Assembly: GCA_963774715.1 (NCBI GenBank)
Contig: CAVZFX010000003.1
Span: 81,824-145,823, forward strand
From: an uncultured Alphaproteobacteria bacterium
GTDB taxonomy: Bacteria > Pseudomonadota > Alphaproteobacteria > Rhizobiales > Xanthobacteraceae
Reading direction: 5' to 3'
DNA: 64,000 nt
The notes beneath the pieces are model-generated. The model saw nothing but the letters and a program-made list of their open reading frames with translations, did no database searches and was not told the origin of the DNA. Shown here in pieces: positions 41,850 through 55,434 of the stretch. The translations under genes were made by a program, and so were the position numbers. Within the stretch, counting starts at the first letter, position 1. Each line of letters begins with the position of its first letter.

Positions 41850-42469
41850 CGCGGCACCTCGCAGTGAGCTTTAAGGACAAGACGCGCGCACTATCGCACA
41901 CCGCGCGAGGAGTGAAAGCGGCGCGTGCGGCCCGCTCGCGAGCGACGCGGCCGGAAAAAATTCGCGGCGCGTGACGAATTTTCTTGCAATGCGTTTGCGA
42001 TGCGCTTATGTGCCGCTCGCCCAAATTCGCACGTGCCTGTGGCCGTGTGTCGATCGGTAGGCATCCGGACAAGAGGCCGGACAGTCGCCTGAGGTTCGAA
42101 AGTTTACGAGCCTCACACCATGATCGGCAGCCGGAGGCGAAACCGGCGCACCCCGCGCTCAACGGGGGACGCGGCTTAAAGCAACGACGGAGCGGGCTTT
42201 TTTGGTTGGCCGTCCAAAGGTCAGCACCGAAGAGGCTTGTCCATCTTGTCTTGCCGGCCGTGCGGAACGGGTTCTCCCGCTCCAATCCAAGGCAGCATCT
42301 CGGCTTAAGCGTCACGTGTCTGCACCGTGTCCCCAACGCACGGTCCGACGCCGAAGCGCTGCAGCCGCTGACGCCGGTCGTGCGCGCGCAAGCGCGCGCG
42401 GCTGAATTTCAACGCGGGCCAGCCGGCGCCAAAGCCGCTTGGCCCCTTGAACTGGAAAGGAGCGCGCCA
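41850..42469 (+). promoter_or_regulatory. 620-nt non-coding leader upstream of ornithine decarboxylase; candidate speF-type RNA element
   Basis: No credible CDS. Corbino et al. 2005 described a conserved 'speF' RNA motif upstream of ornithine decarboxylase genes in alphaproteobacteria. I cannot verify the covariation model by eye. Confidence 0.3.
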
Positions 42470-43612
42470 ATGACCGAGCGCATCCACGACTTTCTGCGCC
42501 GCCGCCGCGAAGAGGGGCTGGACGATGGTCCCTGCCTCGTCGTCGATCTCGACGTCGTGCGCGACAACTATGGTGCCTTTGCCAAGGCCTTGCCCGATAG
42601 CCGGGTGTTTTATGCCGTGAAGGCAAACCCGGCGCCGGAGCTCTTGTCGCTTCTGGTCTCGCTTGGCTCCTGCTTCGACACCGCCTCGGTCGCCGAGATC
42701 GAGATGGTGCTCGCCGCCGGGGCCGCCGCCGAGCGCATCTCCTTCGGCAATACCATCAAGAAGGAGCGCGACATCGCGCGCGCGTTCGCGCTCGGCGTCC
42801 GCCTGTTCGCGGTCGACTGCAAGGCCGAGGTGGAGAAGATCGCCCGCGCCGCTCCCGGCGCCAAGGTGTTCTGCCGCTTCCTGTTCGGCTGCGCCGGCGC
42901 CGAATGGCCGCTGTCGCGGAAATTCGGCTGCGATCCGGAGATGGCGGTCGAGGTGCTCGAGCATGCCCACAAGCTCGGGCTTGAGGCGGCCGGCGTGTCG
43001 TTTCATGTCGGCTCGCAGCAGCGCCGCACCGCGGCCTGGGACGAAGCGCTGAAGTCGGCCTCGGCGATCTTTCGCGCCTGTGCCGACCGCGGCATCAACC
43101 TGTCGATGGTCAATCTCGGCGGCGGCTTTCCGACCAAATACCTGCGCGACGTGCCGGCGGTCGAGGCCTATGGGCGCTCGATCTTCCGCGCCTTGCGCAA
43201 GCATTTCGGCAACGCCATCCCGGAGACCATCATCGAGCCGGGACGCGGCATGGTCGGGAATGCCGGCCTGATCGAGGCCGAGGTCGTGCTGGTCTCGAAC
43301 AAGAGCGAGCACGATCACGTGCGGTGGGTCTATCTCGACATCGGCAAATTCGGTGGCTTGGCCGAAACCATGGGTGAGTCGATCCGCTACCCGATCAAGA
43401 CGCCGCACGACGGCGACGAGGTCGGCCCTTGCGTGCTGGCCGGCCCGACCTGCGACTCAGCCGACGTGCTCTACGAGAAGCGGCCTTACGATCTGCCGAT
43501 CAGCTTGGAGATCGGCGACAAGGTGCTGATCGAAGGCACCGGCGCCTATACCGCGACCTATGCAGCGGTGGCCTTCAACGGCTTCCAGCCGCTGCAGACC
43601 TTCCACATCTGA
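42470..43612 (+). CDS. Ornithine (or Orn/Lys) decarboxylase, alanine-racemase-fold PLP enzyme
   Basis: FYAVKANP (PLP Lys), HVGSQ, GGGF, and the CDSAD C-terminal motif. GGAAAGGAG RBS before ATG 42470. Confidence 0.92.
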   Translation: MTERIHDFLRRRREEGLDDGPCLVVDLDVVRDNYGAFAKALPDSRVFYAVKANPAPELLSLLVSLGSCFDTASVAEIEMVLAAGAAAERISFGNTIKKERDIARAFALGVRLFAVDCKAEVEKIARAAPGAKVFCRFLFGCAGAEWPLSRKFGCDPEMAVEVLEHAHKLGLEAAGVSFHVGSQQRRTAAWDEALKSASAIFRACADRGINLSMVNLGGGFPTKYLRDVPAVEAYGRSIFRALRKHFGNAIPETIIEPGRGMVGNAGLIEAEVVLVSNKSEHDHVRWVYLDIGKFGGLAETMGESIRYPIKTPHDGDEVGPCVLAGPTCDSADVLYEKRPYDLPISLEIGDKVLIEGTGAYTATYAAVAFNGFQPLQTFHI

Positions 43613-43642
43613 CCCCTCTTGCTCCGGCAACCCCCACCCTAA

Positions 43643-43666
43643 CCCTCCCCCGCTCGCGGGGGAGGG
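43643..43666. repeat. REP-type hairpin CCCTCCCCC-GCTCGC-GGGGGAGGG
   Basis: Perfect 9-bp stem read directly, between the decarboxylase and GNAT genes. Confidence 0.65.
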
Positions 43667-43708
43667 AAGGAACGGGGACCGCAGCGCAACGGCCGATAGG
43701 AGCGGATC

Positions 43709-44278
43709 ATGGTGACCATCCGGGAAGAGAAGATCGCTGACGTCGCCGCGCGTGAGGCCTTGCTCGACGAGGCCTACGGCCCGGTGCGTTTTGCCAAGGC
43801 GTCCGAGCGGCTGCGCGAAGGACGATTGCCGGCGAACGGCTTGTCGCTGGTCGCGGTCGAACACGGCCATCTCGTCGGTACGGTCCGGCTGTGGAATGTC
43901 AGCGCCGGGCCGGGGCGGGCAGCCTTGCTGCTCGGGCCCTTGGCCGTTCATCCGGCGCATCGCAATCGCGGCATCGGCACCACGCTCGTTCGTCGCGCCA
44001 TCGCGCGGGCGCGTCTCGCCGGCCACGGCGCTATTCTTCTGGTCGGCGACGCACCGTATTACGGCCGTTTCGGTTTTTCCGCGGCCTCGACCGGCGGCCT
44101 GTGGATGCCCGGCCGTTACGATCGCGACCGGCTGCTTGCGCTCGCGCTCAAACCCGGCGCACTCGACGGTGCGCGCGGTCTGATCGGCGCTGCGGGGCCG
44201 CTTGCGCCGGCGCCCGATCTCGCCACCCTTGTGGCAGAGGATCGGCGCGCCGAAAGGACTCGCGTCCGCGCGGCCTAG
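43709..44278 (+). CDS. GNAT-family N-acetyltransferase
   Basis: LAVHPAHRNRGIGTTLVRRAI acetyl-CoA binding motif. Confidence 0.8.
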   Translation: MVTIREEKIADVAAREALLDEAYGPVRFAKASERLREGRLPANGLSLVAVEHGHLVGTVRLWNVSAGPGRAALLLGPLAVHPAHRNRGIGTTLVRRAIARARLAGHGAILLVGDAPYYGRFGFSAASTGGLWMPGRYDRDRLLALALKPGALDGARGLIGAAGPLAPAPDLATLVAEDRRAERTRVRAA

Positions 44279-44403
44279 CCGCAAATCAGCAAAAGATCGG
44301 GGACGCCACGGATAAAAAATCCGTGGCGTCTCTTCCGTTTCCGCATTGCCGCGGATATCACCCCAAGATTGTCGACCCATGATTGCCGTTGGAGGCTTGC
44401 ACG

Positions 44404-45834
44404 ATGACCGAATGGCCTGTTCACGCCCGCATCACCGGTCCCGTTGTTATGATCGGTTTCGGCTCGATCGGCAAAGGTACGCTGCCTTTGATCGAGCGTC
44501 ATTTCGATTATGACAAATCGCGTTTCGTGGTCATCGATCCCGAGGATAAGGACCGCAAGCTATTGGACGACCGCGGCATCCGTTTCATTCACCAGGCGGT
44601 CACACGCGACAACTACCGCAAGCTCCTCGGACCTTTGCTCAAAGACGGCGGCGGGCAGGGCTTTTGCGTCAATCTCTCGGTGGACACCTCGTCGGTCGAC
44701 ATCATGGAGTTCTGCCGCGAGATCGGAGTCCTTTACATCGACACCGTGGTCGAGCCCTGGCCTGGGTTCTACTTTGATTCCAAGCTCGGTCCGGAAGCGC
44801 GTTCGAACTACGCGCTGCGCGAAACCGTGCTGGCGGCGCGCCGCAAAACCCCCGGCGGCACCACGGCGGTGTCGTGCTGCGGCGCCAATCCCGGGATGGT
44901 GTCCTGGTTCGTCAAGCAGGCACTTCTGAATATCGCCGGCGATCTCAAGCTCAAGTTCAAAGAGCCAAAGTCGCGCGAGGAATGGGGCAGGCTCGCCAAG
45001 AAGGTCGGCGTCAAAGGCATCCACATCGCCGAGCGCGACACCCAGCGCGCCGTGAAGCCGAAGCCGATCGAGGTCTTCGTCAATACCTGGTCCGTCGAAG
45101 GCTTTCTCTCCGAAGGCATGCAGCCCGCCGAGCTCGGCTGGGGCACGCATGAGAAGAAGCTGCCGAAAAACGGTTTTAAGCATAAGACCGGCTGCCAGGC
45201 GGCGATCTATCTGACCCAGCCCGGCGCCAATACGCGGGTACGCTCATGGACGCCGACGGCCAAGGCGCAATACGGATTTCTGGTGACGCACAACGAGTCG
45301 ATCTCGATCGCGGACTATTTTACGCTGCGCGACGGCCGCAAAGTGATCTACCGGCCGACATGCCATTACGCCTATCATCCCTGCAACGACGCGGTGCTGT
45401 CGCTGCACGAGCTGTTCGGCCAGGCCGGCAAACGGCAGCCGGCCATTCACATTCTGGACGAGCACGAGATCGCCGACGGCATCGACGAGCTCGGCGTGCT
45501 GCTCTACGGCCACAAGAAGAACGCCTATTGGTACGGTTCGCAGCTTTCGATCGACGAGACCCGCGACATCGCGCCCTATCAGAACGCCACCGGCCTGCAG
45601 GTGACCTCCGCCGTCCTCGCCGGCATGGTGTGGGCCGTTGAAAACCCGAAGGCCGGTATCGTCGAAGCCGACGAGATGGATTTCCGCCGCTGCCTCGAAG
45701 TGCAGATGCCGTATCTCGGGCCGGTGATCGGCGCCTATACCGATTGGACGCCGATCACGGATCGGCCCGGCTTGTTCCCGGAAGCGATGGATAAGCGCGA
45801 TCCGTGGCAATTCATCAATGTGCTGGTCAAATAA
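44404..45834 (+). CDS. hss: Homospermidine synthase
   Basis: MTEWPVHARITGPVVMIGFGSIGKGTLPLIERHF... matches the bacterial HSS N-terminus. About 477 aa. GGAGG RBS. Confidence 0.92.
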   Translation: MTEWPVHARITGPVVMIGFGSIGKGTLPLIERHFDYDKSRFVVIDPEDKDRKLLDDRGIRFIHQAVTRDNYRKLLGPLLKDGGGQGFCVNLSVDTSSVDIMEFCREIGVLYIDTVVEPWPGFYFDSKLGPEARSNYALRETVLAARRKTPGGTTAVSCCGANPGMVSWFVKQALLNIAGDLKLKFKEPKSREEWGRLAKKVGVKGIHIAERDTQRAVKPKPIEVFVNTWSVEGFLSEGMQPAELGWGTHEKKLPKNGFKHKTGCQAAIYLTQPGANTRVRSWTPTAKAQYGFLVTHNESISIADYFTLRDGRKVIYRPTCHYAYHPCNDAVLSLHELFGQAGKRQPAIHILDEHEIADGIDELGVLLYGHKKNAYWYGSQLSIDETRDIAPYQNATGLQVTSAVLAGMVWAVENPKAGIVEADEMDFRRCLEVQMPYLGPVIGAYTDWTPITDRPGLFPEAMDKRDPWQFINVLVK

Positions 45835-45847
45835 TAGTCGATGCTGA

Positions 45848-45871
45848 CGGATGCCTCGACCGCGGCGTCCG
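45848..45871. terminator. Hairpin CGGATGCC-8nt-GGCGTCCG between convergent hss and dsbA; possible bidirectional terminator
   Basis: 8-bp stem with one G-U pair, read directly. No strong T tract. Confidence 0.35.
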
Positions 45872-45885
45872 CTGTCTGTTGCGTT

Positions 45886-46722
45886 TCAATTCGCCGTGTT
45901 TCGGGCGGCCGCGATATCCCCCTCCAATGCGGCGACGCCGATGGCACCCACGACCAGATTTTTGCCGATCACGTAGGAAGGTGTGCCGCGGATGCCGATC
46001 GCACTGGCTAGCGTCATATCCTCGCTGAGCGTCGCTTTGACCTCGTCGCTTGCCATATCTTGCTCCAGGCGCGCCATGTCGAGGCCTTGATCTTTCGCGG
46101 CCGCCAGCGCCTTTTCTTTGCTGGCAGGCCCCGGACTGCCGAGGAGCTCCCGGTGGAAGGCAAGATATTTTGCGCTGTCCGGATCTTGCATGCGCACCGC
46201 GACGGCGACGCGCGCGGCATCCGCCGAGCCCGGTCCGAGGATGGGAAATTCCTTAAGTACGATTTTCAATTTCGGATCGTCTTTGAGAAGCGTGAGCATA
46301 TCGGGCAGCGCACGCTTGCAGAAGCCGCAATTGTAATCGAAAAACTCAACCAGCGTGACGTCGCCGTTTGGATTGCCGAGCGTAACCTGGTGCGGCGACG
46401 AAAATAATTCTGATTCGTTGTTCACGATCGCGGCGCTTGCTTCGGGCGGTGTCTTGGCGCTCGCCGCCCCCGTGGCACCGGCGCTCGTGCTTGCGGCCGG
46501 CCGATGCTTGAGCAGTTCGGCAATGATCTGTCCCACGGCCTCGGGGTGCTTGATCATGTAATCCTTGACGATCTCGCCGACTTCGTCGGGATGAGTTACG
46601 AGATAATCCTTGATGATGCCGTCGATCTCGCCGCGCAAATCCTGCGCCGGGCTCGGCTGCGGTGCGACGAGGATAAAGACGGCGAGAGCCAAGCTGCCGG
46701 CCACATTATTGAGCGCTTTCAT
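45886..46722 (-). CDS. DsbA-family periplasmic thiol:disulfide oxidoreductase
   Basis: Signal peptide and active site FDYNCGFCKR (CxxC). GTPSYVIG near the C-terminus. Confidence 0.9.
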   Translation of the reverse strand: MKALNNVAGSLALAVFILVAPQPSPAQDLRGEIDGIIKDYLVTHPDEVGEIVKDYMIKHPEAVGQIIAELLKHRPAASTSAGATGAASAKTPPEASAAIVNNESELFSSPHQVTLGNPNGDVTLVEFFDYNCGFCKRALPDMLTLLKDDPKLKIVLKEFPILGPGSADAARVAVAVRMQDPDSAKYLAFHRELLGSPGPASKEKALAAAKDQGLDMARLEQDMASDEVKATLSEDMTLASAIGIRGTPSYVIGKNLVVGAIGVAALEGDIAAARNTAN

Positions 46723-46752
46723 TGGCTTTTCTCCATCGCTGCCGCCTTACCG

Positions 46753-49515
46753 CTACCTTCTCGGAAGGAACATGCCCGGTGGATGCATCGGGCCCCGCAT
46801 GAACGGTCTGCCAGGAATGAACATGTGTGGGGGTGCGCCGAGCCTGATGCAAACGCCAAAGCGGTTCCGGAATTCGCCAGGCGGGCAAGGTGCCGGTCGC
46901 TCCGGCACGCAGGCGCCTTCGCCGTTGCGAATTTCGCCTCGCGGGCAAGGCGCCGGCCGCTCGGGCACGCAATGTCCCTCGCGGTCGCGAATTTCACCCG
47001 GCGGACAGGTCTCCGTCGATATGGGCACGCATTTGCCTTCGCGATCACGCTCTTCTCCGGACGGGCATGCCACCGTCGGAAGGGGCAGACAGGCGCCGCT
47101 GGTGCTGCGGAAGTTGCCCGGCGGGCATGACGTTGTGGGGATCGGTACGCACAAACCGCGTTCGTCGCGGAACTCTCCCGGCGCGCAGGACTGCTGCTGG
47201 ACATTGCAGGATTTGCCATCGGCGCCGACAAAACGGTTATTGCAGCAGGAGCCATCGGGCATCTTGCTGTAACCTGACGCGCACGTCGCGAGCGGAATAA
47301 GAACCTGGCACTCCTTGCGATTTGCCGGATCGACCGGGCCCGGACAGCAGACGCCGCGCGTTGTCACGTTCGCCGGTGGGCAGCATTGGCCGCTCGCCGT
47401 AGGAATTCCCGATGCACAGCATTGCGGTCCGGGCGGCAATTTGATCGGTATGTAGACGATCTTCTCGCACTGGCTCTTGTTGGTGCCGCCCGGCGTCTGT
47501 CCGGCGGGACAGCAGACGCCGGTGGAAGTCATCTTGCTGGAGAGACAACATGCGCTGCCGACCGGCACATAGCCTTTGCCGCAGCCCGTTGTCGGCGGAT
47601 TGGGCGGCGTCGGACACTGGCCGTTCACGAGCGCGGTGGCACAGCACGTCTGCCCGCTCCCTGCGCTGGTGTAAACTTGGCCGCTGTTGCAGCAGAAGTT
47701 ACTCGGACCCACCGCCGTCTGACCGGCCGGGCAAGTTGAATTCGAGCATGCGGCCGTGGCCGCGATTTGGTTCACGCTGCAACACCGGCCGTTGACCTGA
47801 ATATTGGGCGAAGAGCAACTCATGCATTCATTGGTGCCGGCGCGGGTCACCTCGCCCGGCTTGCAGCCGCCGGGCGGCGTCGGTGGCGGCGGCTTGGGAT
47901 GACCCGGCGGCGGGCCTGGCGGGCCGACCGGCGGAGCGCCGATTGGCGCCACGCCGCCAAATGGAACGAGTTCGGCGTGCTGGGCGGCAGAGCACAGTCT
48001 TTCGATGGCGATGTCTCCCATATGCCCGCGTTCCGCAGGGTCGTCGTAGCGATCGTCGTAATCGATGAAGTAGCTCTGCAACGGCGGCGCATTGTCGGGC
48101 CGGATGCGCCAGCCGCCGTTGCCTTGCAGGCCGTTGACATCCGGTGGGCCGGACTGGCCGCGCCGCGCCGCGAGCACCGGATCGGCGGGCTGGCGCAAAT
48201 TCTCGCCGGTTGCCCATAGGAAGCCGCCGCACGAACCCGGCACCAGCGCACCGTTGTGATCGTAATCGTAACCGATCGCGACGCCGCCGTTGCCGTTGCG
48301 GAAATCGGGCGGGAAGCCGATGGCGTATTCATCGGGCTGGAACTGCCAGATGCGCCGGCCGTTCGGCATGATCTCGACGATCGCGTAGCGCAACACGCGG
48401 CCGATTGCCGGAACGGACAAGGCCTCGAAGTCAAAGGCGCCGGTCGGCGCCGGCCGGTCGGCAAGCAACATTCGCCCTTGTTCGTCGAAGGTGATTTTCG
48501 AAATCTCCGTCGGGCCGCTCGAAGGCGGCACGGCGAGTTCGATCACCGCGTCATTGCCGAACGAGCCGTCGGCGTTGAGGCTGACTGACCAGATTTGCAG
48601 GGCGTCGGCGACGGCGTAATAGAGCCGGCCCTGATGGACCGCGAGACCGAAGACGCGGCGTGCCGGATCGGCATAGTTCCAGGTCGCGGGTTGCGTACTG
48701 TCGAATTGCGGGCTGGTGACATCGAGTGGCTGCTGGGATGTCCATGGCGCCGGCGGCAGGCCTTGAGCCTGGCGTCCGGTAACGCCGTGATCATAGCTGC
48801 CGAGATCGGTGCCGTTACGCGCAAAGCGATGGATCAGTCCGCTTTCGCGGTCAGCGACATAGAGCGATTGGGATGCGGGATCATAAGCAAGGCCGCCGAG
48901 TGCGGCGCCCGAATTGGCTCTGCCGTTGGTCGCCACATTGGCGAACAAGCTGACCGCGCCCGTTGCGCCGTCGATCTTCCAGATCGACCCGGGGCCGCCA
49001 TGCGGACCCCACAGGCCGGGCATGAAGGCCGCATTCGGCGCGCCGGACGCGATATGCACGGACTGCCCGTCCGGGCCGGGTGCGACGATCGGCAGTCCGT
49101 AGGCCGAGCTCGCCGCGACATAAATATTCGGTGGCGAATTGTCGTCGGCAGTCACGCCGAACACCTGACCGATCAAGGCGGCGCTGAAGGTGAACGGCTT
49201 CGGCGCGCCGACAAGCTGCGCCCGCGCCGGGCCGCCCATATTCTGCAAATCGACGATGCGGAGCGACGGGCCGCTCATATCGATAAAGGTCTTTTGGTTA
49301 GGATCGACACCCGGCGCGATCTGCGCCGGCGGCAGAGCACCGGAAAATCCGGTGACTGCGGCGTTGCCCGCGGCGTAGATCGGGTTTGGTTGCTGCGCAT
49401 GCAGCGCCGTAACCTGCCATGCAAAGAGAGCGAAGCTCAGCGCCCCAATGAAACGATGTCCGCCGCGCCATTTTCGGCGCGCAGCGAACGGACATTTTTG
49501 GGGCGCCCGGGCCAT
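46753..49515 (-). CDS. Large secreted protein: N-terminal propeller-like domain, Pro-rich linker, roughly 350-aa cysteine-rich C-terminal region with tandem repeats
   Basis: 920 aa with signal-like RFIGALSFALFAWQVTALHAQ. Linker PPVGPPGPPPGHPKPPPPTPPGG. About 40 Cys by hand count after residue 551. No family recognised. Confidence 0.8.
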   Translation of the reverse strand: MARAPQKCPFAARRKWRGGHRFIGALSFALFAWQVTALHAQQPNPIYAAGNAAVTGFSGALPPAQIAPGVDPNQKTFIDMSGPSLRIVDLQNMGGPARAQLVGAPKPFTFSAALIGQVFGVTADDNSPPNIYVAASSAYGLPIVAPGPDGQSVHIASGAPNAAFMPGLWGPHGGPGSIWKIDGATGAVSLFANVATNGRANSGAALGGLAYDPASQSLYVADRESGLIHRFARNGTDLGSYDHGVTGRQAQGLPPAPWTSQQPLDVTSPQFDSTQPATWNYADPARRVFGLAVHQGRLYYAVADALQIWSVSLNADGSFGNDAVIELAVPPSSGPTEISKITFDEQGRMLLADRPAPTGAFDFEALSVPAIGRVLRYAIVEIMPNGRRIWQFQPDEYAIGFPPDFRNGNGGVAIGYDYDHNGALVPGSCGGFLWATGENLRQPADPVLAARRGQSGPPDVNGLQGNGGWRIRPDNAPPLQSYFIDYDDRYDDPAERGHMGDIAIERLCSAAQHAELVPFGGVAPIGAPPVGPPGPPPGHPKPPPPTPPGGCKPGEVTRAGTNECMSCSSPNIQVNGRCCSVNQIAATAACSNSTCPAGQTAVGPSNFCCNSGQVYTSAGSGQTCCATALVNGQCPTPPNPPTTGCGKGYVPVGSACCLSSKMTSTGVCCPAGQTPGGTNKSQCEKIVYIPIKLPPGPQCCASGIPTASGQCCPPANVTTRGVCCPGPVDPANRKECQVLIPLATCASGYSKMPDGSCCNNRFVGADGKSCNVQQQSCAPGEFRDERGLCVPIPTTSCPPGNFRSTSGACLPLPTVACPSGEERDREGKCVPISTETCPPGEIRDREGHCVPERPAPCPRGEIRNGEGACVPERPAPCPPGEFRNRFGVCIRLGAPPHMFIPGRPFMRGPMHPPGMFLPRR
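46828..47187 (-). repeat. Six tandem 60-nt (20-aa) coding repeats C-P-x-G-E/N-x-R-x4-G-x-C-x-P-x4
   Basis: CAPGEFRDERGLCVPIPTTS / CPPGNFRSTSGACLPLPTVA / CPSGEERDREGKCVPISTET / CPPGEIRDREGHCVPERPAP / CPRGEIRNGEGACVPERPAP / CPPGEFRNRFGVCIRLGAPP. Confidence 0.85.
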
Positions 49516-49522
49516 TGTCTAT

Positions 49523-50701
49523 CTACTGCGCGACTTGTTTCGGTATGCACGTTCCGTCCGTCGGGTCGGGTATCGTTCCCGGCGGGCAACACTGTCCGCA
49601 CGACGTCACCTGGTTCGGATCGCAGCAAGCGCCGCTCATCGTCATGCCTTCGTTCGGGTTCGAACATGGCGTGACGCATTTGCCGCCGATCATTTCTTGC
49701 CCGGTGGGGCAGGTGACGATCGGCGGACAGATCGAACCCGTTGGGTTGAGCAGCGATACTTGCGACGGCACCGCGGGCCTGCCGTCGGGGCACATGCAGA
49801 CTTCGGCCAAGCCGCCCGACGTGCCCGCGGCTGTCGTTCCGCTTGGGCACTCACAGACATACATCACGTAGCCATTATTGATGTTGCCGCCGTCCTGATA
49901 GTAATTCGGCTCAGGGACGACCTGCATGGGCGCCGGACAGAAACAATAAGTATCGGGCGAGCAGTATTGGCTGTGGCCATCCCAGCCATCGGTAACACTG
50001 ATGACCATGGTGCCGCCGGCGACGGACTTGGTGATGACCGGCGGCGGATTGACGCCGTTCTGTCCGTAAATGGCGTTGGCGCAGGCCGGATCGTTGGGAT
50101 TGGCGCCATAGCCGGTGCATTCCTCGATCGGCGGCGTGCAATTCGCCGCGACCGGCGTCGGCGGTGTGCAGCCGCAGCCGCCCCAGCCGACATCCTGCTG
50201 GATGCCGCAAATCGCGCTTTGCAGGCAGGCCAGAACATCGCCGCCGAGTGCGCCGACCCCTTGATCCCACTGGCACGCACATTCCGCGGCGGCCACGGGA
50301 TTCGCCGCGCCGGATAAAAGCTGCTGCACCGTGTCGAGCGCACCGGTCGCGACACCGAGATTGCCCAGCGCGCTGCTGAGCGTGCCAAGATCGCTTTGTC
50401 CGTTGGTCAGATCGTTGAATGCGTTATTGATTGCGCCGCAAACATTGGCGCTCGGATCTTCGGCCATCACGCCGCCGAGCGCGGCCGCAAGCCCAACGAG
50501 CGCAGCGTCGCCGACCGGATCGGCATAAGTCGTGTCGCAGGCCGGCGATGAAACGCTCGATGCCGCGTTTTGCAGTGCGTTCCAGAAATCTTGCGGATCG
50601 CAGCTTTGCGCGCGCGCCTGAACGCACAGCGTACAAGTCACGGCCGCCGCAGCCAGCAGCGCCGCACTCACTCTCTCGACAACGCGCCAGCCAGTCGCCA
50701 T
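49523..50701 (-). CDS. Secreted cysteine-rich protein (392 aa), first gene of the Cys-rich/DsbA operon
   Basis: Signal peptide ...AAAAVTCTLCVQARAQ. C-terminal CC-containing modules (GACCDPNQVTSCGQCCPPGT) resemble those of the downstream 920-aa protein. Its stop is 7 nt before the next start. Confidence 0.75.
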   Translation of the reverse strand: MATGWRVVERVSAALLAAAAVTCTLCVQARAQSCDPQDFWNALQNAASSVSSPACDTTYADPVGDAALVGLAAALGGVMAEDPSANVCGAINNAFNDLTNGQSDLGTLSSALGNLGVATGALDTVQQLLSGAANPVAAAECACQWDQGVGALGGDVLACLQSAICGIQQDVGWGGCGCTPPTPVAANCTPPIEECTGYGANPNDPACANAIYGQNGVNPPPVITKSVAGGTMVISVTDGWDGHSQYCSPDTYCFCPAPMQVVPEPNYYQDGGNINNGYVMYVCECPSGTTAAGTSGGLAEVCMCPDGRPAVPSQVSLLNPTGSICPPIVTCPTGQEMIGGKCVTPCSNPNEGMTMSGACCDPNQVTSCGQCCPPGTIPDPTDGTCIPKQVAQ

Positions 50702-50820
50702 GGGGCAGCCGTGAGAATCGTGAGTTCTCGAACTGTCCCCTCTCCCCTAACGAACGCTACACCGCGCCGACGCGGCGTACAATGCCTTCGAACGGTAGGA
50801 TTTTACTCAACCCGGACGAT

Positions 50821-51840
50821 TTACTTCAGGCGCTTCGCCGCCTCCTCGACCATGCTGAGATCGGAATATTTCTTCACGTCGAGGCTCGACTTGATGAAGC
50901 CAAGCTCCTTGGTCATGTCGACGTTCTTCTGCAGCGCGTCGAGGTTCGGCATCAGATTGGGATCGTGATAGCAGTCCCGCTTGGTGAACGCCCAACTGAA
51001 GATCGCCGGCGGCTTCTTCACCAGATCGCCGAGGATTTGCATCGCCGCCTCGTGGTTCGCCGGATCCTCGTACCAGCGCGCGATACGCAAGGTGTCTTCG
51101 AAGAAATCGACCAGTGCGGCACGGTGCGCGTCGATGAACGGCTTGCGCGCGGTCCATACGATCATGTCGGCGACGCCGATGGCGTCCTTCTGGACGAACA
51201 GGTCGCGCGCGATTTTCTGCAGCTCGGGGTCGTAAGAGAACGGCAGCACCGCGGGAATAAGATCGACCTTCTTTTCCGCCAGCATCGATTTCATGGCAGG
51301 GAACGGCGCCTCGACGACGGTATAGTCGCGGTTGGGCTCCAATCCATGCTTGTGCAACATCGCTTTCATGGCGACGTCGACGGCGCTGCCCTCGGCATTG
51401 GTGGCGACGACCTTGCCCTTGAGGTCCTCGATCTTGTGGATCGGGCCGTCTTTGAGCACCATGTATTCTTGCGAATAGTAGCCCGGGACGCCGTCCTGGA
51501 ATTCGTCGGAAACGATACGCAGGTCGTCGAGCCCGGCGTTCTCGACGGCGATGCCAAGCGTCGAGTAAGCGAGGTTGGTGACCTCAACCTGGTTGTTGGC
51601 GAGCGCCGTGATCATCGGCGGCGTGCCGACATAGTGCACCGGATCCATCACGTAGGACTGGCCGAAATGCTTGGCGAGGTCCTTCTTCTGCAGCCAGATC
51701 GAAGCCCAATTGCCCGGTGCGACCCAGGCTTCGCGGATGTGTATGGGATCGGCCTTGGCGGATCCCGCACAAGCCAAAATCACGGCCAGACTGCACAGTC
51801 CGGCCCACGCAAGCGCCATCGCACGTGTGGTAGCACGCAT
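50821..51840 (-). CDS. ABC transporter substrate-binding protein (NitT/TauT family), paralogue 1
   Basis: Signal peptide. Alignable along its full length to the product of 51898-52902. Confidence 0.85.
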   Translation of the reverse strand: MRATTRAMALAWAGLCSLAVILACAGSAKADPIHIREAWVAPGNWASIWLQKKDLAKHFGQSYVMDPVHYVGTPPMITALANNQVEVTNLAYSTLGIAVENAGLDDLRIVSDEFQDGVPGYYSQEYMVLKDGPIHKIEDLKGKVVATNAEGSAVDVAMKAMLHKHGLEPNRDYTVVEAPFPAMKSMLAEKKVDLIPAVLPFSYDPELQKIARDLFVQKDAIGVADMIVWTARKPFIDAHRAALVDFFEDTLRIARWYEDPANHEAAMQILGDLVKKPPAIFSWAFTKRDCYHDPNLMPNLDALQKNVDMTKELGFIKSSLDVKKYSDLSMVEEAAKRLK

Positions 51841-51897
51841 CGTTCCCTCCCAAGGTGATGTGGGCGCCGTTGGTCGGCGCCTCGTTCTTAGAAGTTC

Positions 51898-52902
51898 TTA
51901 CTGCAGGCGCTTTGCTGCCTCTTGAATCAGGCTGAGATCGGAATGCGCCTTGACGTCGAACGTTGCTTTGACGAAGCCAAGATCCTTGGTCATGTCGACG
52001 TTCTTCTGCAACGCTCCAAGGTTCGGCATCATATTCGGATCGCGGTAGTAATCGGTCTTGGTGTAGAGCCAGCCGAAGCGCTCGACCGGCTGCTTAGTCA
52101 GCTGCGAAGCGATCTGCGCGGCTGCATCGTGATTTTTCGGGTCGAGGTACCAGCGCTCGATGCGCATCGTATCCTCAAGAAAGTCGACGAGCGCAGCGCG
52201 ATGCGCGTCGATGAACGGCTTGCGCGCGGTCCAGACAATGAACTGGGATACGCCAATCGCGTCGTGAACCGTGAACAGCGGCCGCGCGATCTTCTTGAGT
52301 TCCGGATCGAGCGCAAATGGCAGCACGGTGGGAATTAGGTCGACCTTCTTCTCCGCCAGCATCGCCTTCATCGCCGGGAACGGCGCTTCGACGATCGTGT
52401 AGTCGCGGTTGGCTTCGAGCCCGTGTTTGCGTAGCATCGCGCGCATGGCGACGTCGACGCCGCTGCCGATCGCATTCGTCGCAACGATCTTGCCCTTGAG
52501 GTCCTCCACTTTCTTGATCGGGCCGTCGGCAAGGACCTCGTACGCGTCGTCGCGATAGCCGGGAACGCCGTCCTGGAATTCGTCGGCGATGACGCGGATG
52601 TCGTCCATCCCGGCATTTGAGATGGCGATCGGCAATGTCGAATAGGCGAGATCGCCGATCTCCAGCTCGTTATTGGCGATGGCCGTGATCATCGGCGGCG
52701 TGCCGGCGAAATGCGTCGCCTCGAACGTGTAGGACTGACCGAAATGGTGAGCGAGGTCCTTCTTTTGCAGCCACATTGAGAACCAGTTGGCGACCGGCGC
52801 GACCCAGGCGCCGCGAATTTGCAGCGGATCGGCCTGCGCGAGGCTGACGCTCAACAGAAACAGCGCAAAGCTTGCCAATCCAATCTTCCCACGCATTCTC
52901 AT
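51898..52902 (-). CDS. ABC transporter substrate-binding protein (NitT/TauT family), paralogue 2
   Basis: GGAG RBS before ATG 52902 and a signal peptide. Roughly two-thirds identical to paralogue 1 by eye. Confidence 0.85.
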   Translation of the reverse strand: MRMRGKIGLASFALFLLSVSLAQADPLQIRGAWVAPVANWFSMWLQKKDLAHHFGQSYTFEATHFAGTPPMITAIANNELEIGDLAYSTLPIAISNAGMDDIRVIADEFQDGVPGYRDDAYEVLADGPIKKVEDLKGKIVATNAIGSGVDVAMRAMLRKHGLEANRDYTIVEAPFPAMKAMLAEKKVDLIPTVLPFALDPELKKIARPLFTVHDAIGVSQFIVWTARKPFIDAHRAALVDFLEDTMRIERWYLDPKNHDAAAQIASQLTKQPVERFGWLYTKTDYYRDPNMMPNLGALQKNVDMTKDLGFVKATFDVKAHSDLSLIQEAAKRLQ

Positions 52903-53031
52903 TGATCTCCCAAAAAGGCTGCAGTTTATTCGCAAATCGCCGGCGGGTTCGCCGGTTCGGCCCGATTGTGGGCGCAAAGGGCGATGCAAGGCAAGGCTCC
53001 GGCTTGCTGCCCCTTGCCGCACCGGCGCCGG

Positions 53032-53883
53032 TTAGCGTTCCGCGGTCTCCTGATGCCAGACCAGGAGCCGGCGGCGGATCACCGCCATGGCCTTGATCAG
53101 GGCGTAGCCGACCACTGCAATCTCGACGATGCCGGCGAACACGCCGCGCAAATCGGCAAAGCGCGAGGCACTCATCATGGCGCCGCCCAGCCCATAGCCG
53201 CCCATTACCATCTCGCCGATGATGGCGACGATGAGCGAGATCGGCAGTGCCACCTGCAGCCCGGTCATGATTTGCGGCAACGCCGCCGGCAGCTTGATCT
53301 GCCACATCACCTCGCGCTCGCTTGCGCCCATATTACGCGCCGACCAGATCAGCTCCATGTCGACAGCCGCGATGCCGGCCAGCGTCGCGGTGACGACCGG
53401 GAAGATCGCGTCGAACACGACAATGGAGATTTTCGAGACGTCGTAGACGCCAAGCCACAAAATGATAATCGGCAGAAATGCGATTTTCGGCATGGGAAAG
53501 CCGACCGAAATGATCGGGTCGAAGAACCAACGAACCAGCCGGTTCCGTGACATCGCGGCGCCGAGTGCGATACCGAGTACGGCGGCGATGACAAATCCGG
53601 TCATGGCGCGGGCGATTGTGAGTCCAAGATTGATCCACAAGTCGCCGCTGATGGCGTCGGCGTAGATGCGCTCGGCGACGGCGGAAAACGGCGGCAGCAT
53701 GAATGCGGTCACCCTGCCGCTGCGGGCGAAAAGTTCCCAGGCAATCAGCACCACCAAAACGGAAAAAACGCCGGCGCCGCTGCGGAACACGACGTCGAGA
53801 CGGCGAGCTGCATCGTAGGTGACGTCGGCTTCTGCGGCCGCCAACGAGGCCGTGTCTTCTATTCCCGCCATTGCAGCAACCAT
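53032..53883 (-). CDS. ABC transporter permease (BPD-type)
   Basis: Multi-TM protein. The motif SARNMGASEREVMWQIKLPAALP is the EAA-loop region. Start ambiguous (53883 or 53871); it overlaps the upstream permease stop. Confidence 0.85.
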   Translation of the reverse strand: MVAAMAGIEDTASLAAAEADVTYDAARRLDVVFRSGAGVFSVLVVLIAWELFARSGRVTAFMLPPFSAVAERIYADAISGDLWINLGLTIARAMTGFVIAAVLGIALGAAMSRNRLVRWFFDPIISVGFPMPKIAFLPIIILWLGVYDVSKISIVVFDAIFPVVTATLAGIAAVDMELIWSARNMGASEREVMWQIKLPAALPQIMTGLQVALPISLIVAIIGEMVMGGYGLGGAMMSASRFADLRGVFAGIVEIAVVGYALIKAMAVIRRRLLVWHQETAER

Positions 53884-54614
53884 TGCATGAGAAGCTGATA
53901 GAGCCGGTCGGCGGCAAAACCCAGGAAGGCGACGGTGAGCACCACCGCATACATGCCTTCGTAAGCGCCGGTCGAGCCGAGGTAACCGATCAGATAGCCA
54001 AAACCCTGCTGCGAGACGATCAATTCGGAACTCACCAGCAGGATGAAGGCTAAAGCGAGTGCGGTGCGGATGCCGTTGAGCAATTCCGGCAGCGCGCTCG
54101 GCACCACGACGTCCCACAGCAAGCGCAGCCGTCCGGCGCCCATGCTCCGCGCCGACCAAATCAGCGCCTGGTCGCTGCCGCGCGCCCCGTTATAGGCGCC
54201 GATGGTGACCGGGATCATGCAGCCGAGAAAGATGAGCAGGATTTTGGAACCATCGCCGAAGCCCAGCCACAGCACAGTCACCGGAATAAGCGCCGATTTC
54301 GGCAGCGGATAGAACAGCTCCACCAGCGGATTGACGAACACCTCCAACAGCCGCCAACGCGCCATGAGGATCCCCAGGCCGCCGCCGACCACGACAGCCA
54401 AAAGGAGACCCATGGCGCCGCGATATAGCGAGGCCGCACCGTTGTCGACGAGCTCGCCGTCGCGAACGAGATCGACCCACGCCGTCGCCACGTGAGTGAG
54501 CGGCGGCAGCGCCTGGCTGTCGATGAGGTTCAAGCGCGCCGTCACCTCCCACGCGAGCGCCAGAATCACGAGCGGCAAGTAACGGAAACTCGCTTGCGTC
54601 ATGGCTTGCATCAA
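53859..54614 (-). CDS. ABC transporter permease (BPD-type)
   Basis: SARSMGAGRLRLLWDVVVPSALP EAA-loop region; 6 TM-like segments. Confidence 0.88.
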   Translation of the reverse strand: MMQAMTQASFRYLPLVILALAWEVTARLNLIDSQALPPLTHVATAWVDLVRDGELVDNGAASLYRGAMGLLLAVVVGGGLGILMARWRLLEVFVNPLVELFYPLPKSALIPVTVLWLGFGDGSKILLIFLGCMIPVTIGAYNGARGSDQALIWSARSMGAGRLRLLWDVVVPSALPELLNGIRTALALAFILLVSSELIVSQQGFGYLIGYLGSTGAYEGMYAVVLTVAFLGFAADRLYQLLMQWLLQWRE

Positions 54615-54639
54615 ACCCGGCCTCGTTAGCGCGCCTTCG

Positions 54640-55434
54640 TCAGGTTGCCTTGACTTCTTGCGCCTTGATCGCCTCGTCGCGCACCAGATTCCAGATTTCG
54701 TCGGCCTTATCGACGAATTCCTTCGTACGCAGGATGCTGGGATCGCGATTGGCGAATTTTGTCTCGACGATTTTCTTGATGCATCCCGGCCGCGCCGACA
54801 TCACCACCACGCGCTCGGCGAGATAGACCGCTTCCTGCACGTCGTGGGTGACGAAGATCACGGTCTTCGGGGTCCGCTTCCAGATGCTGAGAAGCTCGGT
54901 CTGCATCAGCGAGCGCGTCTGTGCGTCGAGCGCCCCGAACGGCTCGTCCATCAGCAAAATGCTGGGATCGAAGGCAAGCGTGCGCGCGATTGCGGTGCGC
55001 TGGCGCATGCCGCCGGACAATTGCGACGGATAGCTGTCCTCGAATCCCTTCAAACCGACGAGGTCGATGAAAGCTTGCGCTCGCTTTTCCCGCTCGGGGC
55101 GCGGTAAGCGCTGGCGTTCCAGACCGTAAAGAATATTGGTGCGCACGGTTTTCCATGGAAACAGCGCAAAATGCTGGAATACGATGCCGCGATCCGGTCC
55201 GGGCGCAGTGACCGGCTTTCCCTCGACCAGGATACGGCCGGCCTCGGTCGGCAGGAACCCGCCCACGAGGTAAAGCAGCGTCGATTTTCCGCAGCCCGAA
55301 GGGCCGAGGATCGCCAAAAATTCGCGCGGCCGCACTTCGAGCGACACGTCGGACAATGCGAGCACGGCCCGCCCGCGTGGCGGGCGGTAGGTGTGGTTCA
55401 CCCGCTCGATGACGATCTGGCCTTTGCCGTCCAT
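54640..55434 (-). CDS. ABC transporter ATP-binding protein
   Basis: Walker [10 protein letters not shown], signature LSGGMRQR, Walker B ILLMDEPF. Confidence 0.93.

What the first reader, a model, noticed from the sequence alone, without database searches (positions are those of the whole stretch)
45886..50701. Operon of two extremely cysteine-rich secreted proteins followed by a dedicated DsbA
What the sequence shows:
- Three co-directional minus-strand genes are separated by 7 nt and 30 nt: a 392-aa protein, a 920-aa protein and a 278-aa DsbA (CGFC active site).
- Both large proteins have signal peptides and no family that I recognise.
- Both contain many Cys arranged in short modules. Many modules have a CC doublet preceded by G/S and followed by P/N/S (GRCCSVNQ, NFCCNSGQ, GVCCPAGQ, GQCCPPAN, GACCDPNQ, GQCCPPGT).
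- The 920-aa protein also has a roughly 500-aa N-terminal region with propeller-like strand repeats (LYVADRESGLIHRF, RLYYAVADALQIWSV) and a poly-Pro linker.

Inference: the position and spacing suggest the DsbA is a dedicated oxidative-folding partner for disulfide-dense exoproteins. Disulfide-knotted extracellular modules of this density are unusual in bacteria and look more like eukaryotic EGF/furin/EB-type repeats. The pair could be an adhesin, a host- or prey-interaction factor, or a surface-matrix component.
Basis: partly seen in the sequence, partly recalled or inferred. Interest (0 to 1): 0.65.

Follow-up and report, generated by a model that had tools for sequence, protein, structure and literature searches.

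The report
Cysteine-rich protein pair with own disulfide enzyme
A soil alphaproteobacterium carries a three-gene cassette, conserved as a unit across its order, that encodes two exported, uncharacterised, disulfide-packed proteins and a specialised disulfide enzyme found only beside such proteins; cysteine counts suggest the two proteins are joined by one disulfide bridge.

Summary
Three minus-strand genes (392 aa, 920 aa, 278 aa) are separated by 7 and 30 nt. The two large proteins match no Pfam or NCBIfam family and are 8% and 5% Cys, against 0.9% in neighbouring genes.

The 920-aa protein is, in order: a signal peptide, a six-bladed beta-propeller, a proline-rich linker, a region of CC-doublet modules, six 20-aa C-x11-C hairpins and a basic tail.

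The "DsbA" belongs to the ScsC / alpha-DsbA2 group. It has an N-terminal ScsC_N helical segment and a CGFC active site.

The three genes travel as a unit. 49 of 67 fully flanked loci across Hyphomicrobiales keep the same order while the outer neighbours differ. All 60 cassette-linked DsbAs form one clade. Its sister clade sits in copper-handling clusters.

A new finding concerns cysteine counts. The exported 392-aa family almost always has an odd number of Cys. So does the 920-aa family whenever the partner gene is present. The paralogue clade that lacks both the partner and the DsbA is even in 13 of 14 cases, despite having up to 94-97 Cys.

I infer one inter-protein disulfide, made or guarded by the dedicated enzyme. 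The biological role and the final location of the proteins remain unknown.

The parts
50702..50820 (-). 119-nt intergenic region upstream of the first gene; presumed promoter region
   Evidence: Sequence read. No consensus promoter was found. In a Rhodopseudomonas relative, an RNA-seq contig begins 16 nt upstream of the homologous start codon. A promoter here is an inference only.
49523..50701 (-). Gene 1: 392-aa exported Cys-rich protein. Signal peptide residues 1-31 (nt 50609-50701); helical N-terminal half about residues 32-170 (50192-50608); beta-rich C-terminal half with CxC and CC motifs, residues 171-392 (49526-50191)
   Evidence: ORF. No Pfam or NCBIfam hit. 51 database homologues. 24 invariant Cys. 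AlphaFold model is poor (pLDDT 62) and has no significant Foldseek match. Odd mature Cys count in 47/47 database homologues and in 47/49 genome-locus homologues as scripted; the two even counts are an anchoring artefact, so effectively 49/49.
49516..49522 (-). 7-nt spacer between gene 1 stop and gene 2 start
   Evidence: The spacer is most often 3-10 nt (commonest values 6-7) across homologous loci.
46753..49515 (-). Gene 2: 920-aa exported protein
   Evidence: ORF. At least 1360 database homologues. 1573 clusters at 50% identity match the propeller.
47986..49380 (-). Six-bladed beta-propeller domain (residues 46-510), with an invariant Cys pair C429/C508
   Evidence: AlphaFold pLDDT mostly 80-97. 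Foldseek matches LRP2/LRP6 YWTD propellers, the TRIM71 NHL domain, DFPase and SGL lactonases (E 1e-12 to 1e-6). A sequence profile matches DFPase only weakly (E 0.01). Pfam NHL is sub-threshold.
47866..47985 (-). Proline-rich linker (residues 511-550; 16 Pro in 40 aa)
   Evidence: Composition. Low pLDDT. Length varies between homologues.
47191..47865 (-). CC-doublet module region (residues 551-775): 29 Cys and 9 CC doublets, often 10 residues apart. This is the region that carries the odd cysteine
   Evidence: No Pfam hit at E<=10. Cys count is 27, 29, 31 or 33 in 102 of 103 homologues.
46849..47187 (-). Six tandem 20-aa disulfide-hairpin repeats, C-P-x-G-E-x-R-x3-G-x-C (residues 777-889). The copy number varies between homologues
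   Evidence: The model shows beta-hairpins. Partial Pfam TIL hit covering only profile positions 36-52 of 55. 60-nt DNA tandem repeat at 46873-46995. Cys in this region is always even, 4-22.
46756..46848 (-). Basic, Pro/Gly-rich C-terminal tail (residues 890-920)
   Evidence: pLDDT below 50. Function unknown.
46723..46752 (-). 30-nt spacer with a GGAG ribosome-binding site before gene 3
   Evidence: The gap is typically 18-87 nt in homologous loci.
45886..46722 (-). Gene 3: 278-aa ScsC-clade DsbA-like thiol-disulfide oxidoreductase. Signal peptide residues 1-26; N-terminal helical ScsC_N-like segment about residues 33-75 (nt 46498-46626); thioredoxin/DsbA domain residues 100-278; CGFC at nt 46318-46329; cis-Pro loop G-T-P at residues 246-248
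   Evidence: Pfam DSBA 1e-26 and ScsC_N 31 bits against a cut-off of 25.8. PDB sequence matches: 3gyk 4e-41; 7rgv (CcScsC) 7e-27 including the N-terminal segment; 6eez; 4gxz; 4xvw. Conserved columns. Clade analysis.
45848..45871 (.). GC-rich hairpin between the convergent ends of gene 3 and the homospermidine-synthase-like gene; possible bidirectional terminator
   Evidence: It is a consensus match only, and the count of terminator-like sites in the region is no higher than in shuffles.

Best explanation
This is a three-gene operon that is inherited, duplicated or moved as one unit within Hyphomicrobiales.

It encodes two Sec-exported, heavily disulfide-bonded cell-envelope proteins:
- a 392-aa protein with a helical half and a beta-rich half;
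- a 920-aa protein with a six-bladed beta-propeller "head" on a proline linker and a disulfide-braced stalk of CC modules and C-x11-C hairpins.

The third gene is a specialised oxidoreductase of the ScsC / alpha-DsbA2 type (N-terminal oligomerisation helix, DsbA-like thioredoxin domain, CGFC). It evolved from copper-cluster ScsC proteins and now serves this protein pair.

Shown here:
- the gene structure and the conserved cassette;
- the separate DsbA clade;
- the propeller fold;
- expression of the gene pair in a cultured relative.

Inferred: nearly all Cys are in intramolecular disulfides, because Cys numbers change in steps of two.

Proposed: each mature protein keeps exactly one Cys unpaired, and these two form a single inter-protein disulfide. 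The result would be a covalent 1:1 complex. The dedicated, probably trimeric isomerase/oxidase would form or proof-read that bond, or keep the lone thiols available until the partners meet.

The ligand or substrate of the propeller and the final location (periplasm, peptidoglycan-associated or cell surface) are unknown.
For: Gene structure:
- The ORFs and their tight spacing are confirmed.
- The spacer is conserved in other genomes: most often 3-10 nt between genes 1 and 2, and 18-87 nt between genes 2 and 3.

Synteny:
- Of 67 genome loci with both flanks, 49 keep all three genes in the same order and on the same strand. A further locus (L018) qualifies by tblastn.
- The outer neighbours are shared only with the five closest loci.

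DsbA clade:
- A single bipartition of a neighbour-joining tree separates all 60 cassette-linked DsbAs from 37 of 38 non-linked ones. It holds at the same quality in 27 of 30 bootstraps.
- The one exception (L112) also sits beside a 1060-aa, 74-Cys exported protein.
- The non-linked clade lies in SCO1 / PCuAC / CtaG / Cu-ATPase clusters, often as an HMA-DsbD_2-ScsC fusion.

Co-inheritance:
- Pairwise identities of the three proteins correlate (r = 0.50-0.69).
- The two cassettes of Bradyrhizobium sp. LTSP885 each find their closest relatives, for most components, in the same other loci (L011 with L052; L055 with the Xanthobacter loci L072/L077).

Type of enzyme:
- ScsC_N is above the Pfam cut-off.
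- The alignment to CcScsC (7rgv) includes the oligomerisation segment.
- That segment supports trimerisation and isomerase activity in CcScsC, PmScsC and WpDsbA2 (PMC8900818, PMC6450060).

Cysteine parity:
- The 392-aa family is odd in 47/47 database homologues. In genome loci the script gave 47/49; the two even counts are an anchoring artefact, so effectively 49/49.
- The 920-aa family is odd in 102/103 database homologues and in 47/49 partnered loci, over more than a dozen different counts (35-71).
- The two exceptions are a premature stop inside a hairpin and an R-to-C change.
- Partner-less paralogues are even in 13/14 cases (22-94 Cys). Fisher P = 1.4e-10, not corrected for phylogeny.
- The propeller always has 2 Cys and the hairpin repeats are always even, so the odd Cys lies in the CC-module region.

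Expression:
- In a transcriptome of a cultured Rhodopseudomonas-like organism, one 4.8-kb contig starts 16 nt upstream of the gene-1 homologue and runs through the gene-2 homologue.
Against: - No experiment or multimer model supports the inter-protein disulfide. The parity contrast rests essentially on one ancient split between two clades.
- Five loci (three Rhodopseudomonas, L026 and L051) have the odd-Cys pair but no adjacent DsbA. Adjacency is therefore not obligatory, or the enzyme is encoded elsewhere in those genomes.
- No ScsB, DsbD or DsbB partner is linked, so the direction of the redox reaction is unknown.
- Whether this genome has another, general DsbA was not tested. None occurs in the 64-kb window.
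- The model of the 392-aa protein is poor.
- RNA-seq contigs are unstranded and may contain DNA.
- Signal peptides were judged by eye.
Confidence: 0.55

Rival explanations
1. The lone cysteines are not bridged to each other. The ScsC-like enzyme acts as a reductase or guardian, as DsbG and DsbC do for single-Cys periplasmic proteins. It would keep one functional thiol in each protein reduced, for example a catalytic or ligand-binding Cys, or each protein would homodimerise through that Cys.
For: - The odd Cys count is conserved in both families.
- ScsC-type trimers are kept reduced and act as reductases or isomerases (PMC8900818, PMC11634996).
- Five loci carry the pair without an adjacent DsbA.
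Against: - The odd count in the 920-aa family disappears exactly in the clade that lacks the 392-aa partner. This points to a link between the two proteins rather than an intrinsic functional thiol.
- No reductant gene (ScsB or DsbD) is linked in any of the genome loci surveyed.
Confidence: 0.2
2. The cassette is a copper- or other metal-handling system. The Cys-rich proteins would bind or store metal through thiolates, and the ScsC-like protein would act in copper tolerance as in Scs systems.
For: - The sister clade of the cassette DsbA lies in copper clusters.
- ScsC proteins bind Cu(I) with high affinity (PMC8900818).
- The 392-aa protein has five CxC motifs.
Against: - Cys numbers change strictly in pairs, and the hairpin repeats carry exactly two Cys each. 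That is the signature of disulfides, not of thiolate clusters.
- No recurrent neighbour beyond the trio was found in the 80 genome loci, and the neighbours that were scanned (ClpB, ABC transporter components and others) are not copper genes.
- The model gives disulfide-type beta-hairpins.
Confidence: 0.1
3. The DsbA-like gene is simply the organism's general periplasmic disulfide catalyst, and its position next to the two genes is incidental.
For: - No other DsbA-like gene lies in the 64-kb window.
- The rest of the genome could not be searched.
Against: - The linkage is kept in 49 of 67 loci across several families while the flanking genes change.
- The linked DsbAs form their own clade.
- One genome carries two cassettes, each with its own copy.
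- Close relatives with enough upstream sequence all have the 920-aa gene upstream.
Confidence: 0.05

Closest known systems
Substrate-dedicated DsbA paralogues encoded next to their substrates: DsbL with arylsulfate sulfotransferase, SrgA with PefA fimbriae, and BcfH in the Salmonella bcf fimbrial operon (PMC8405906)
   Same: An accessory DsbA-like enzyme is co-encoded, and presumably co-expressed, with particular exported proteins. BcfH is also a trimeric ScsC-like protein with oxidase and isomerase activity.
   Different: - The substrates here are two uncharacterised protein families with 29 and 43 exported Cys, not a sulfotransferase or a fimbrial subunit.
- The cassette is a three-gene unit spread through a whole order of free-living soil bacteria.
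- No DsbI-like partner is linked.
- The enzyme tracks a conserved odd-Cys pair, not simply the presence of disulfides.
ScsC / alpha-DsbA2 trimeric disulfide isomerases: Caulobacter CcScsC (PDB 7rgv), Proteus PmScsC, Wolbachia alpha-DsbA2 (PMC8900818, PMC6450060, PMC5524982)
   Same: - An N-terminal helical ScsC_N segment followed by a DsbA-like thioredoxin domain.
- A C-G-[FY]-C-type active site and a cis-Pro loop.
- A significant sequence match that includes the N-terminal segment.
   Different: - There is no ScsB or DsbD_2 partner and no copper genes nearby.
- The cassette proteins form a separate clade from the copper-cluster relatives.
- Trimerisation and activity were not tested.
YWTD-propeller plus EGF modules of LDL-receptor family proteins (LRP2, LRP6, nidogen), and NHL or SGL six-bladed propellers (TRIM71, DFPase, lactonases)
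   Same: Best Foldseek matches (E 1e-12 to 1e-6). The overall layout is also similar: a six-bladed propeller followed by small disulfide-rich modules.
   Different: - No Pfam membership: NHL scores E 0.05-0.13, and there is no Ldl_recept_b or EGF hit.
- TM-scores are low because the arrangement of domains differs.
- The CC-doublet modules have no counterpart in Pfam.
- The protein is bacterial and periplasm-exported.
TIL (trypsin-inhibitor-like) and EGF-type C-terminal hairpin
   Same: The 20-aa repeats match the last hairpin of the TIL profile, with the pattern C-x-x-G-[YF]-x5-G-x-C-V.
   Different: Only positions 36-52 of the 55-position profile are matched, repeatedly. The ten-Cys TIL domain itself is absent.

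Membership tests
DsbA family (Pfam PF01323, thioredoxin fold) | Profile match above the curated cut-off | tested here: met
   94.2 bits against a cut-off of 25.6.
DsbA family (Pfam PF01323, thioredoxin fold) | CxxC active site and cis-proline loop | tested here: met
   CGFC at residues 132-135. G246-T247-P248 is invariant in 23 cassette DsbAs and aligns with GTPSF of 3gyk.
DsbA family (Pfam PF01323, thioredoxin fold) | Re-oxidation by DsbB or VKOR (oxidase function) | not testable with these tools
   No DsbB-like gene was identified near the cassette; only some window ORFs were scanned. The whole genome was not available.
ScsC / alpha-DsbA2-type oligomeric isomerases | N-terminal helical oligomerisation segment (ScsC_N) | tested here: met
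   PF18312 scores 31 bits against a cut-off of 25.8, in two stretches. The alignment to CcScsC 7rgv covers query residues 45-266. The motif is conserved across 23 homologues.
ScsC / alpha-DsbA2-type oligomeric isomerases | Trimer formation and isomerase activity | not testable with these tools
   Requires biochemistry.
ScsC / alpha-DsbA2-type oligomeric isomerases | Genetic linkage to ScsB/DsbD-type reductant and copper-tolerance genes | tested here: not met
   None in the window or in the conserved neighbourhood of the genome loci. The sister clade does have this linkage.
Substrate-dedicated DsbA paralogue systems (DsbL/ASST, SrgA/PefA, BcfH) | Enzyme co-encoded with its exported substrate(s) and phylogenetically distinct from other DsbA-like proteins | tested here: met
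Substrate-dedicated DsbA paralogue systems (DsbL/ASST, SrgA/PefA, BcfH) | A separate primary DsbA in the same genome | not tested
Substrate-dedicated DsbA paralogue systems (DsbL/ASST, SrgA/PefA, BcfH) | Substrate folding depends on the paralogue | not testable with these tools
   Requires genetics.
Six-bladed beta-propellers (NHL / YWTD / SGL-DFPase) | Six-bladed propeller fold | tested here: met
   AlphaFold propeller pLDDT mostly 80-97. Foldseek probability 1.0 to LRP6, TRIM71 NHL, DFPase and lactonases.
Six-bladed beta-propellers (NHL / YWTD / SGL-DFPase) | Sequence membership in a named repeat family (NHL, Ldl_recept_b or SGL) | tested here: not met
   NHL scores E 0.054-0.13, below the cut-off, and there are no other hits. 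The profile matches DFPase at E 0.01 only.
EGF / TIL / EB / granulin-type Cys-rich repeats | Full-length match to the repeat profile with its complete Cys pattern | tested here: not met
   The CC-module region has no hit at E<=10. The hairpin repeats match only 17 of 55 TIL positions. EB scores E 5.6.

The most novel reading that the evidence does not exclude
The two co-encoded proteins form a covalent heterodimer through one conserved inter-protein disulfide. A ScsC-derived, cassette-specific oligomeric isomerase evolved to make or proof-read that bond. The product would be a bacterial propeller-plus-disulfide-stalk envelope complex with the layout of LDL-receptor-type modules, widespread in soil Hyphomicrobiales and entirely uncharacterised.
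Probability: 0.35. Interest if true: 0.7.

Novelty: new variant of a known kind. Interest (0 to 1): 0.6.

Why it matters
Three reasons it would matter if true.

1. It would add a substrate-dedicated branch to the ScsC family. So far that family is tied to copper tolerance, with BcfH in fimbrial biogenesis as the known exception. The natural substrates of trimeric ScsC-type isomerases are still poorly defined, and this branch comes with natural substrates already identified.

2. It defines two large families of uncharacterised proteins. The propeller family alone has about 1,570 clusters at 50% identity. They occur in abundant soil and rhizosphere bacteria such as Bradyrhizobium, Rhodopseudomonas, Xanthobacter and the methanotroph-related Beijerinckiaceae.

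3. The conserved odd cysteine count in both partners, and its loss in partner-less paralogues, gives a simple and directly testable prediction. It also shows that cysteine parity can be used to predict inter-protein disulfides from sequence alone.

Tried and rejected
- Pfam and NCBIfam on the whole proteins and on excised regions gave nothing for the 392-aa protein or the CC modules.
- The AlphaFold model of the 392-aa protein was poor (pLDDT 62) and its best Foldseek E-value was 0.34, so no fold could be assigned.
- A profile search of PDB sequences with the 920-aa family gave only borderline DFPase hits.
- Promoter and terminator scans were no better than shuffles.
- Only metagenome DNA runs hold the window sequence, so there is no RNA evidence for this organism. 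I used a Rhodopseudomonas relative instead.
- I tried to locate the unpaired Cys by aligning partnered and partner-less paralogues. Their Cys-rich regions are too different to align.
- I looked for a conserved fourth gene, such as a secretion system, an outer-membrane protein or a redox partner. None recurs; ClpB, ABC transporter components and similar genes are lineage-specific neighbours.
- hhalign of the 392-aa family against the L112 1060-aa protein gave only a weak match (probability 42%). I call the relationship possible, not shown.
- The last protein search, with the DsbA as query, listed only close cassette-type relatives. It did not reveal paralogues within named genomes.
- Literature searches found no description of these families.
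Full report
**Observation.** The first spacer is 7 nt (ATAGACA). The second is 30 nt and carries a GGAG 9 nt before the ATG. A GC-rich hairpin sits between the end of the third gene and the convergent downstream gene, but terminator-like sites in the region are no more frequent than in shuffled sequence. The third protein is a clear DsbA-family member (Pfam DSBA 94 bits, CGFC at residues 132-135). The two large proteins hit no Pfam or NCBIfam model. They contain 31 and 44 Cys (7.9% and 4.8%; 12.9% within residues 551-775), against 0.93% in eleven neighbouring genes. The 920-aa protein has nine CC doublets where shuffling gives a mean of 3.25 (P=0.0002). The two CC doublets of the 392-aa protein are not above chance; that protein instead has five CxC motifs. 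Each protein has a plausible Sec signal peptide by inspection; SignalP was not available.

**Anatomy of the 920-aa protein.** Alignments of 19 and 103 homologues show a very conserved N-terminal domain of about 465 residues with just two invariant Cys (C429 and C508). A variable proline-rich linker follows. Next comes a region of about 225 residues with 29 conserved Cys, including nine CC doublets often spaced 10 residues apart. After that is a variable number of 20-residue C-P-x-G-E-x-R-x3-G-x-C repeats, six in this protein, and finally a basic Pro/Gly-rich tail. At the DNA level two of the repeats still form a 60-nt tandem repeat. An AlphaFold model built on the 103-sequence alignment has mean pLDDT 73.7. 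The N-terminal domain is mostly at 80-97 and the 20-aa repeats appear as beta-hairpins. Foldseek against the PDB finds LRP2/megalin and LRP6 (YWTD propeller plus EGF modules), the TRIM71 NHL domain, DFPase and SGL-type lactonases (E 1e-12 to 1e-6, probability 1.0). A sequence profile reaches DFPase only at E about 0.01, and Pfam NHL stays below threshold. The head is therefore a highly divergent six-bladed propeller. It is a member of that fold class but of no named sequence family. The CC-module region alone gives no Pfam hit at E<=10. The hairpin repeats match only the last hairpin (positions 36-52 of 55) of the TIL profile. The Cys modules therefore resemble EGF/TIL hairpins but do not belong to a characterised repeat family.

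**The 392-aa protein.** It has 51 database homologues with 24 invariant and several near-invariant Cys. The model is weak (pLDDT 62). It shows a helical N-terminal half and a beta-rich C-terminal half with CxCP-x-G motifs, and it has no significant structural match. Its C-terminal CC module is faintly similar to the CC modules of the 920-aa protein.

**The oxidoreductase.** Besides the DSBA domain it carries the ScsC_N segment (31 bits, cut-off 25.8). Its best matches to solved structures are 3gyk, 7rgv (Caulobacter ScsC, with the alignment covering the N-terminal segment), 6eez, Salmonella ScsC and Proteus ScsC. In CcScsC and PmScsC this N-terminal helix drives trimerisation, and both are isomerases (PMC8900818). 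Wolbachia alpha-DsbA2 is likewise a homotrimeric isomerase (PMC6450060). ScsC proteins can oxidise or reduce depending on their partners (PMC11634996). The gene is therefore better described as a ScsC-type DsbA-like oxidoreductase than as a canonical DsbA oxidase.

**Is it dedicated?** A scan of one genome per species returned 80 loci with a homologue of the 920-aa protein. Those that could be classified come from Hyphomicrobiales: Bradyrhizobium, Rhodopseudomonas, Roseiarcus, Methylovirgula, Methylocapsa, Rhodoblastus and Xanthobacter. The remaining records are metagenome-assembled genomes labelled only to class or phylum. The 67 loci with both flanks break down as follows:
- 49 carry the full trio in the same order and on the same strand.
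- One more (L018) does so by tblastn.
- Four carry the 392-aa gene but no adjacent DsbA.
- Thirteen carry neither partner. These thirteen form a divergent paralogue clade at about 44% identity.

The outer neighbours of the window (an ABC transporter binding protein, a homospermidine-synthase-like gene and a GNAT acetyltransferase) are shared only by the five closest loci. Elsewhere the flanks are ClpB, ABC transporter components, kinases and the like. Gene spacing is conserved.

A second scan used a profile of the cassette DsbAs against metagenome contigs and gave 80 further loci. Relatives with enough upstream sequence at 55% identity or more to the window protein all have the 920-aa gene upstream. 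Many others at 50-58% identity do not. In a neighbour-joining tree one bipartition separates all 60 cassette-linked DsbAs from 37 of 38 non-linked ones, and it holds at the same quality in 27 of 30 bootstraps. The non-linked clade lies in copper clusters (SCO1/SenC, PCuAC, CtaG/Cox11, a Cu-type P-type ATPase), commonly as the C-terminal domain of an HMA-DsbD_2-ScsC fusion. The single "non-linked" member inside the cassette clade (L112) follows a 1060-aa exported protein with 74 Cys and a putative outer-membrane barrel. That protein is possibly a distant relative of the 392-aa family (hhalign probability 42%).

Pairwise identities of the three cassette proteins correlate (r = 0.50-0.69). Bradyrhizobium sp. 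LTSP885 has two anciently diverged cassettes, each with its own DsbA. For most components, the proteins of each cassette are closest to those of the same other loci (L011 with L052; L055 with the Xanthobacter loci L072/L077). Whether the genome also has a separate primary DsbA could not be checked; none is in the window.

**Cysteine parity.** The exported part of the 392-aa family has 29, 31, 33 or 35 Cys in 47 of 47 database homologues. In genome loci the script counted 47 of 49 as odd. The two even counts arose because the sequence anchor skipped one N-terminal Cys, so all 49 are effectively odd. The 920-aa family is odd in 102 of 103 database homologues. The propeller contributes 2 Cys, the hairpin repeats contribute an even number (4-22), and the CC-module region contributes 27, 29, 31 or 33. 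Among genome loci, 47 of 49 proteins with the partner gene upstream are odd, with counts from 35 to 71. The two exceptions are a premature stop inside a hairpin (L039) and an Arg-to-Cys change in the last hairpin (L044). In contrast, 13 of 14 proteins of the partner-less clade are even, with counts from 22 to 94. Fisher P = 1.4e-10, not corrected for phylogeny because it rests essentially on one clade split. The 74 Cys of the lone L112 protein are also even.

Two conclusions follow. First, Cys are gained and lost in pairs, which is the expected signature of disulfide-bonded exported proteins. The even-count bias is an established indicator of this (for example PMC2823432 and PMC7678975). This argues against a thiolate metal-binding role. 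Second, each of the two co-encoded proteins keeps one Cys without an intramolecular partner, and the 920-aa family loses it when the 392-aa partner is absent. The simplest reading is one inter-protein disulfide. The dedicated enzyme is absent from the partner-less paralogues even though they have up to 94-97 Cys. Its role therefore seems tied to the pair and the lone cysteines rather than to disulfide load as such. This is an inference and is not shown.

**Expression.** The window organism appears only in soil, sediment and root metagenome DNA runs. For the Rhodopseudomonas palustris JSC-3b locus (L036), two transcriptome runs of a cultured relative contain the pair. In one of them a single 4.8-kb contig begins 16 nt upstream of the gene-1 homologue, after an uncovered intergenic gap, and runs through the gene-2 homologue. 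This is consistent with co-transcription. The caveats are that the contigs are unstranded and may include DNA.

**Breadth and location.** An exhaustive search with the propeller alone finds 1573 clusters at 50% identity (649 at E<=1e-30). The domain is always N-terminal, and total protein lengths among the best 150 listed run from fragments of about 250 aa to 2353 aa. Some distant members replace or supplement the Cys modules with PG_binding_1, DUF11 or DUF7507 repeats. Those domains are typical of envelope or surface proteins. No secretion system, sorting signal or outer-membrane component is conserved beside the cassette. Only export across the inner membrane can be inferred, so "secreted exoprotein" and "adhesin" remain speculation.

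**Comparison with known systems.** In logic the cassette works like the substrate-dedicated DsbA paralogues DsbL/ASST, SrgA/PefA and especially BcfH, a trimeric ScsC-like oxidase/isomerase inside a fimbrial operon (PMC8405906). By sequence the enzyme belongs to the ScsC / alpha-DsbA2 group, but it lacks the ScsB/DsbD and copper linkage of that group. By fold and layout the 920-aa protein resembles YWTD-propeller/EGF receptors and NHL/SGL propellers, but it meets no sequence-family definition.

**Verdict.** This is a real, conserved and expressed operon. It is a new variant of a known kind: a substrate-dedicated Dsb paralogue, here with two novel substrate families and a parity-based prediction of a covalent complex. 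The function of the propeller is unknown.

Noticed in passing
window 42019-42201 (+): An Rfam ar45 alphaproteobacterial sRNA match (58 bits, gathering score 40) lies directly upstream of an ornithine/arginine-decarboxylase-like gene. It looks like a leader or regulatory RNA of a polyamine gene. The listed 542-aa ORF probably starts well downstream of 41984.
   Followed up: partly
window 41984-45834 (+): A polyamine cluster converges on the DsbA gene: a decarboxylase, a GNAT acetyltransferase (43709-44278) and a saccharopine-dehydrogenase-fold, homospermidine-synthase-like gene (44383-45834).
   Followed up: partly
window 50821-55434 (-): An ABC transporter operon ends 119 nt upstream of the cassette on the same strand. 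It contains two tandem NMT1-like binding-protein paralogues (69% identical), two permeases and an ATPase. Read-through into the cassette is not excluded.
   Followed up: partly
window 46873-46995: A 60-nt DNA tandem repeat (2 copies, 80% matching) lies inside the hairpin repeats of the 920-aa gene. Judging by 4-22 Cys in this region, the repeat number ranges from about 2 to 11 among homologues. This suggests ongoing expansion and contraction of the stalk.
   Followed up: partly
L109:948-8995: The sister clade of the cassette DsbA sits in a copper cluster: SCO1/SenC, PCuAC, a CtaG-cytochrome c fusion, a free ScsC-like DsbA, a 729-aa HMA + DsbD_2 + ScsC_N + DSBA fusion protein and a Cu-type P-type ATPase.
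   Followed up: partly
L112:202-6840: A variant module: a putative outer-membrane beta-barrel (414 aa, ending in Phe), a 1060-aa exported protein with 74 Cys and no Pfam hit, then a cassette-clade DsbA.
   Followed up: partly
L050, L053, L056, L058, L060, L068, L070, L071, L074-L076, L078-L080: A paralogue clade of the propeller protein has neither the 392-aa partner nor the DsbA. These proteins reach about 1480-1540 aa by ORF length and carry 22-97 Cys; the count is even in 13 of 14.
   Followed up: yes
P0269, P0264, P0308 (distant propeller-family proteins): The same N-terminal propeller is fused to PG_binding_1, DUF11 or ten DUF7507 repeats instead of, or in addition to, the Cys modules. 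This hints at an envelope or surface location.
   Followed up: partly
L039, L049, L018, L052, L059, L069, L073: Some homologues of the 920-aa gene in metagenome-assembled genomes are truncated or frameshifted. Assembly error and genuine decay cannot be told apart here.
   Followed up: no
window 62169-62243 (+): tRNA-Gly (CCC), the only tRNA in the window.
   Followed up: no
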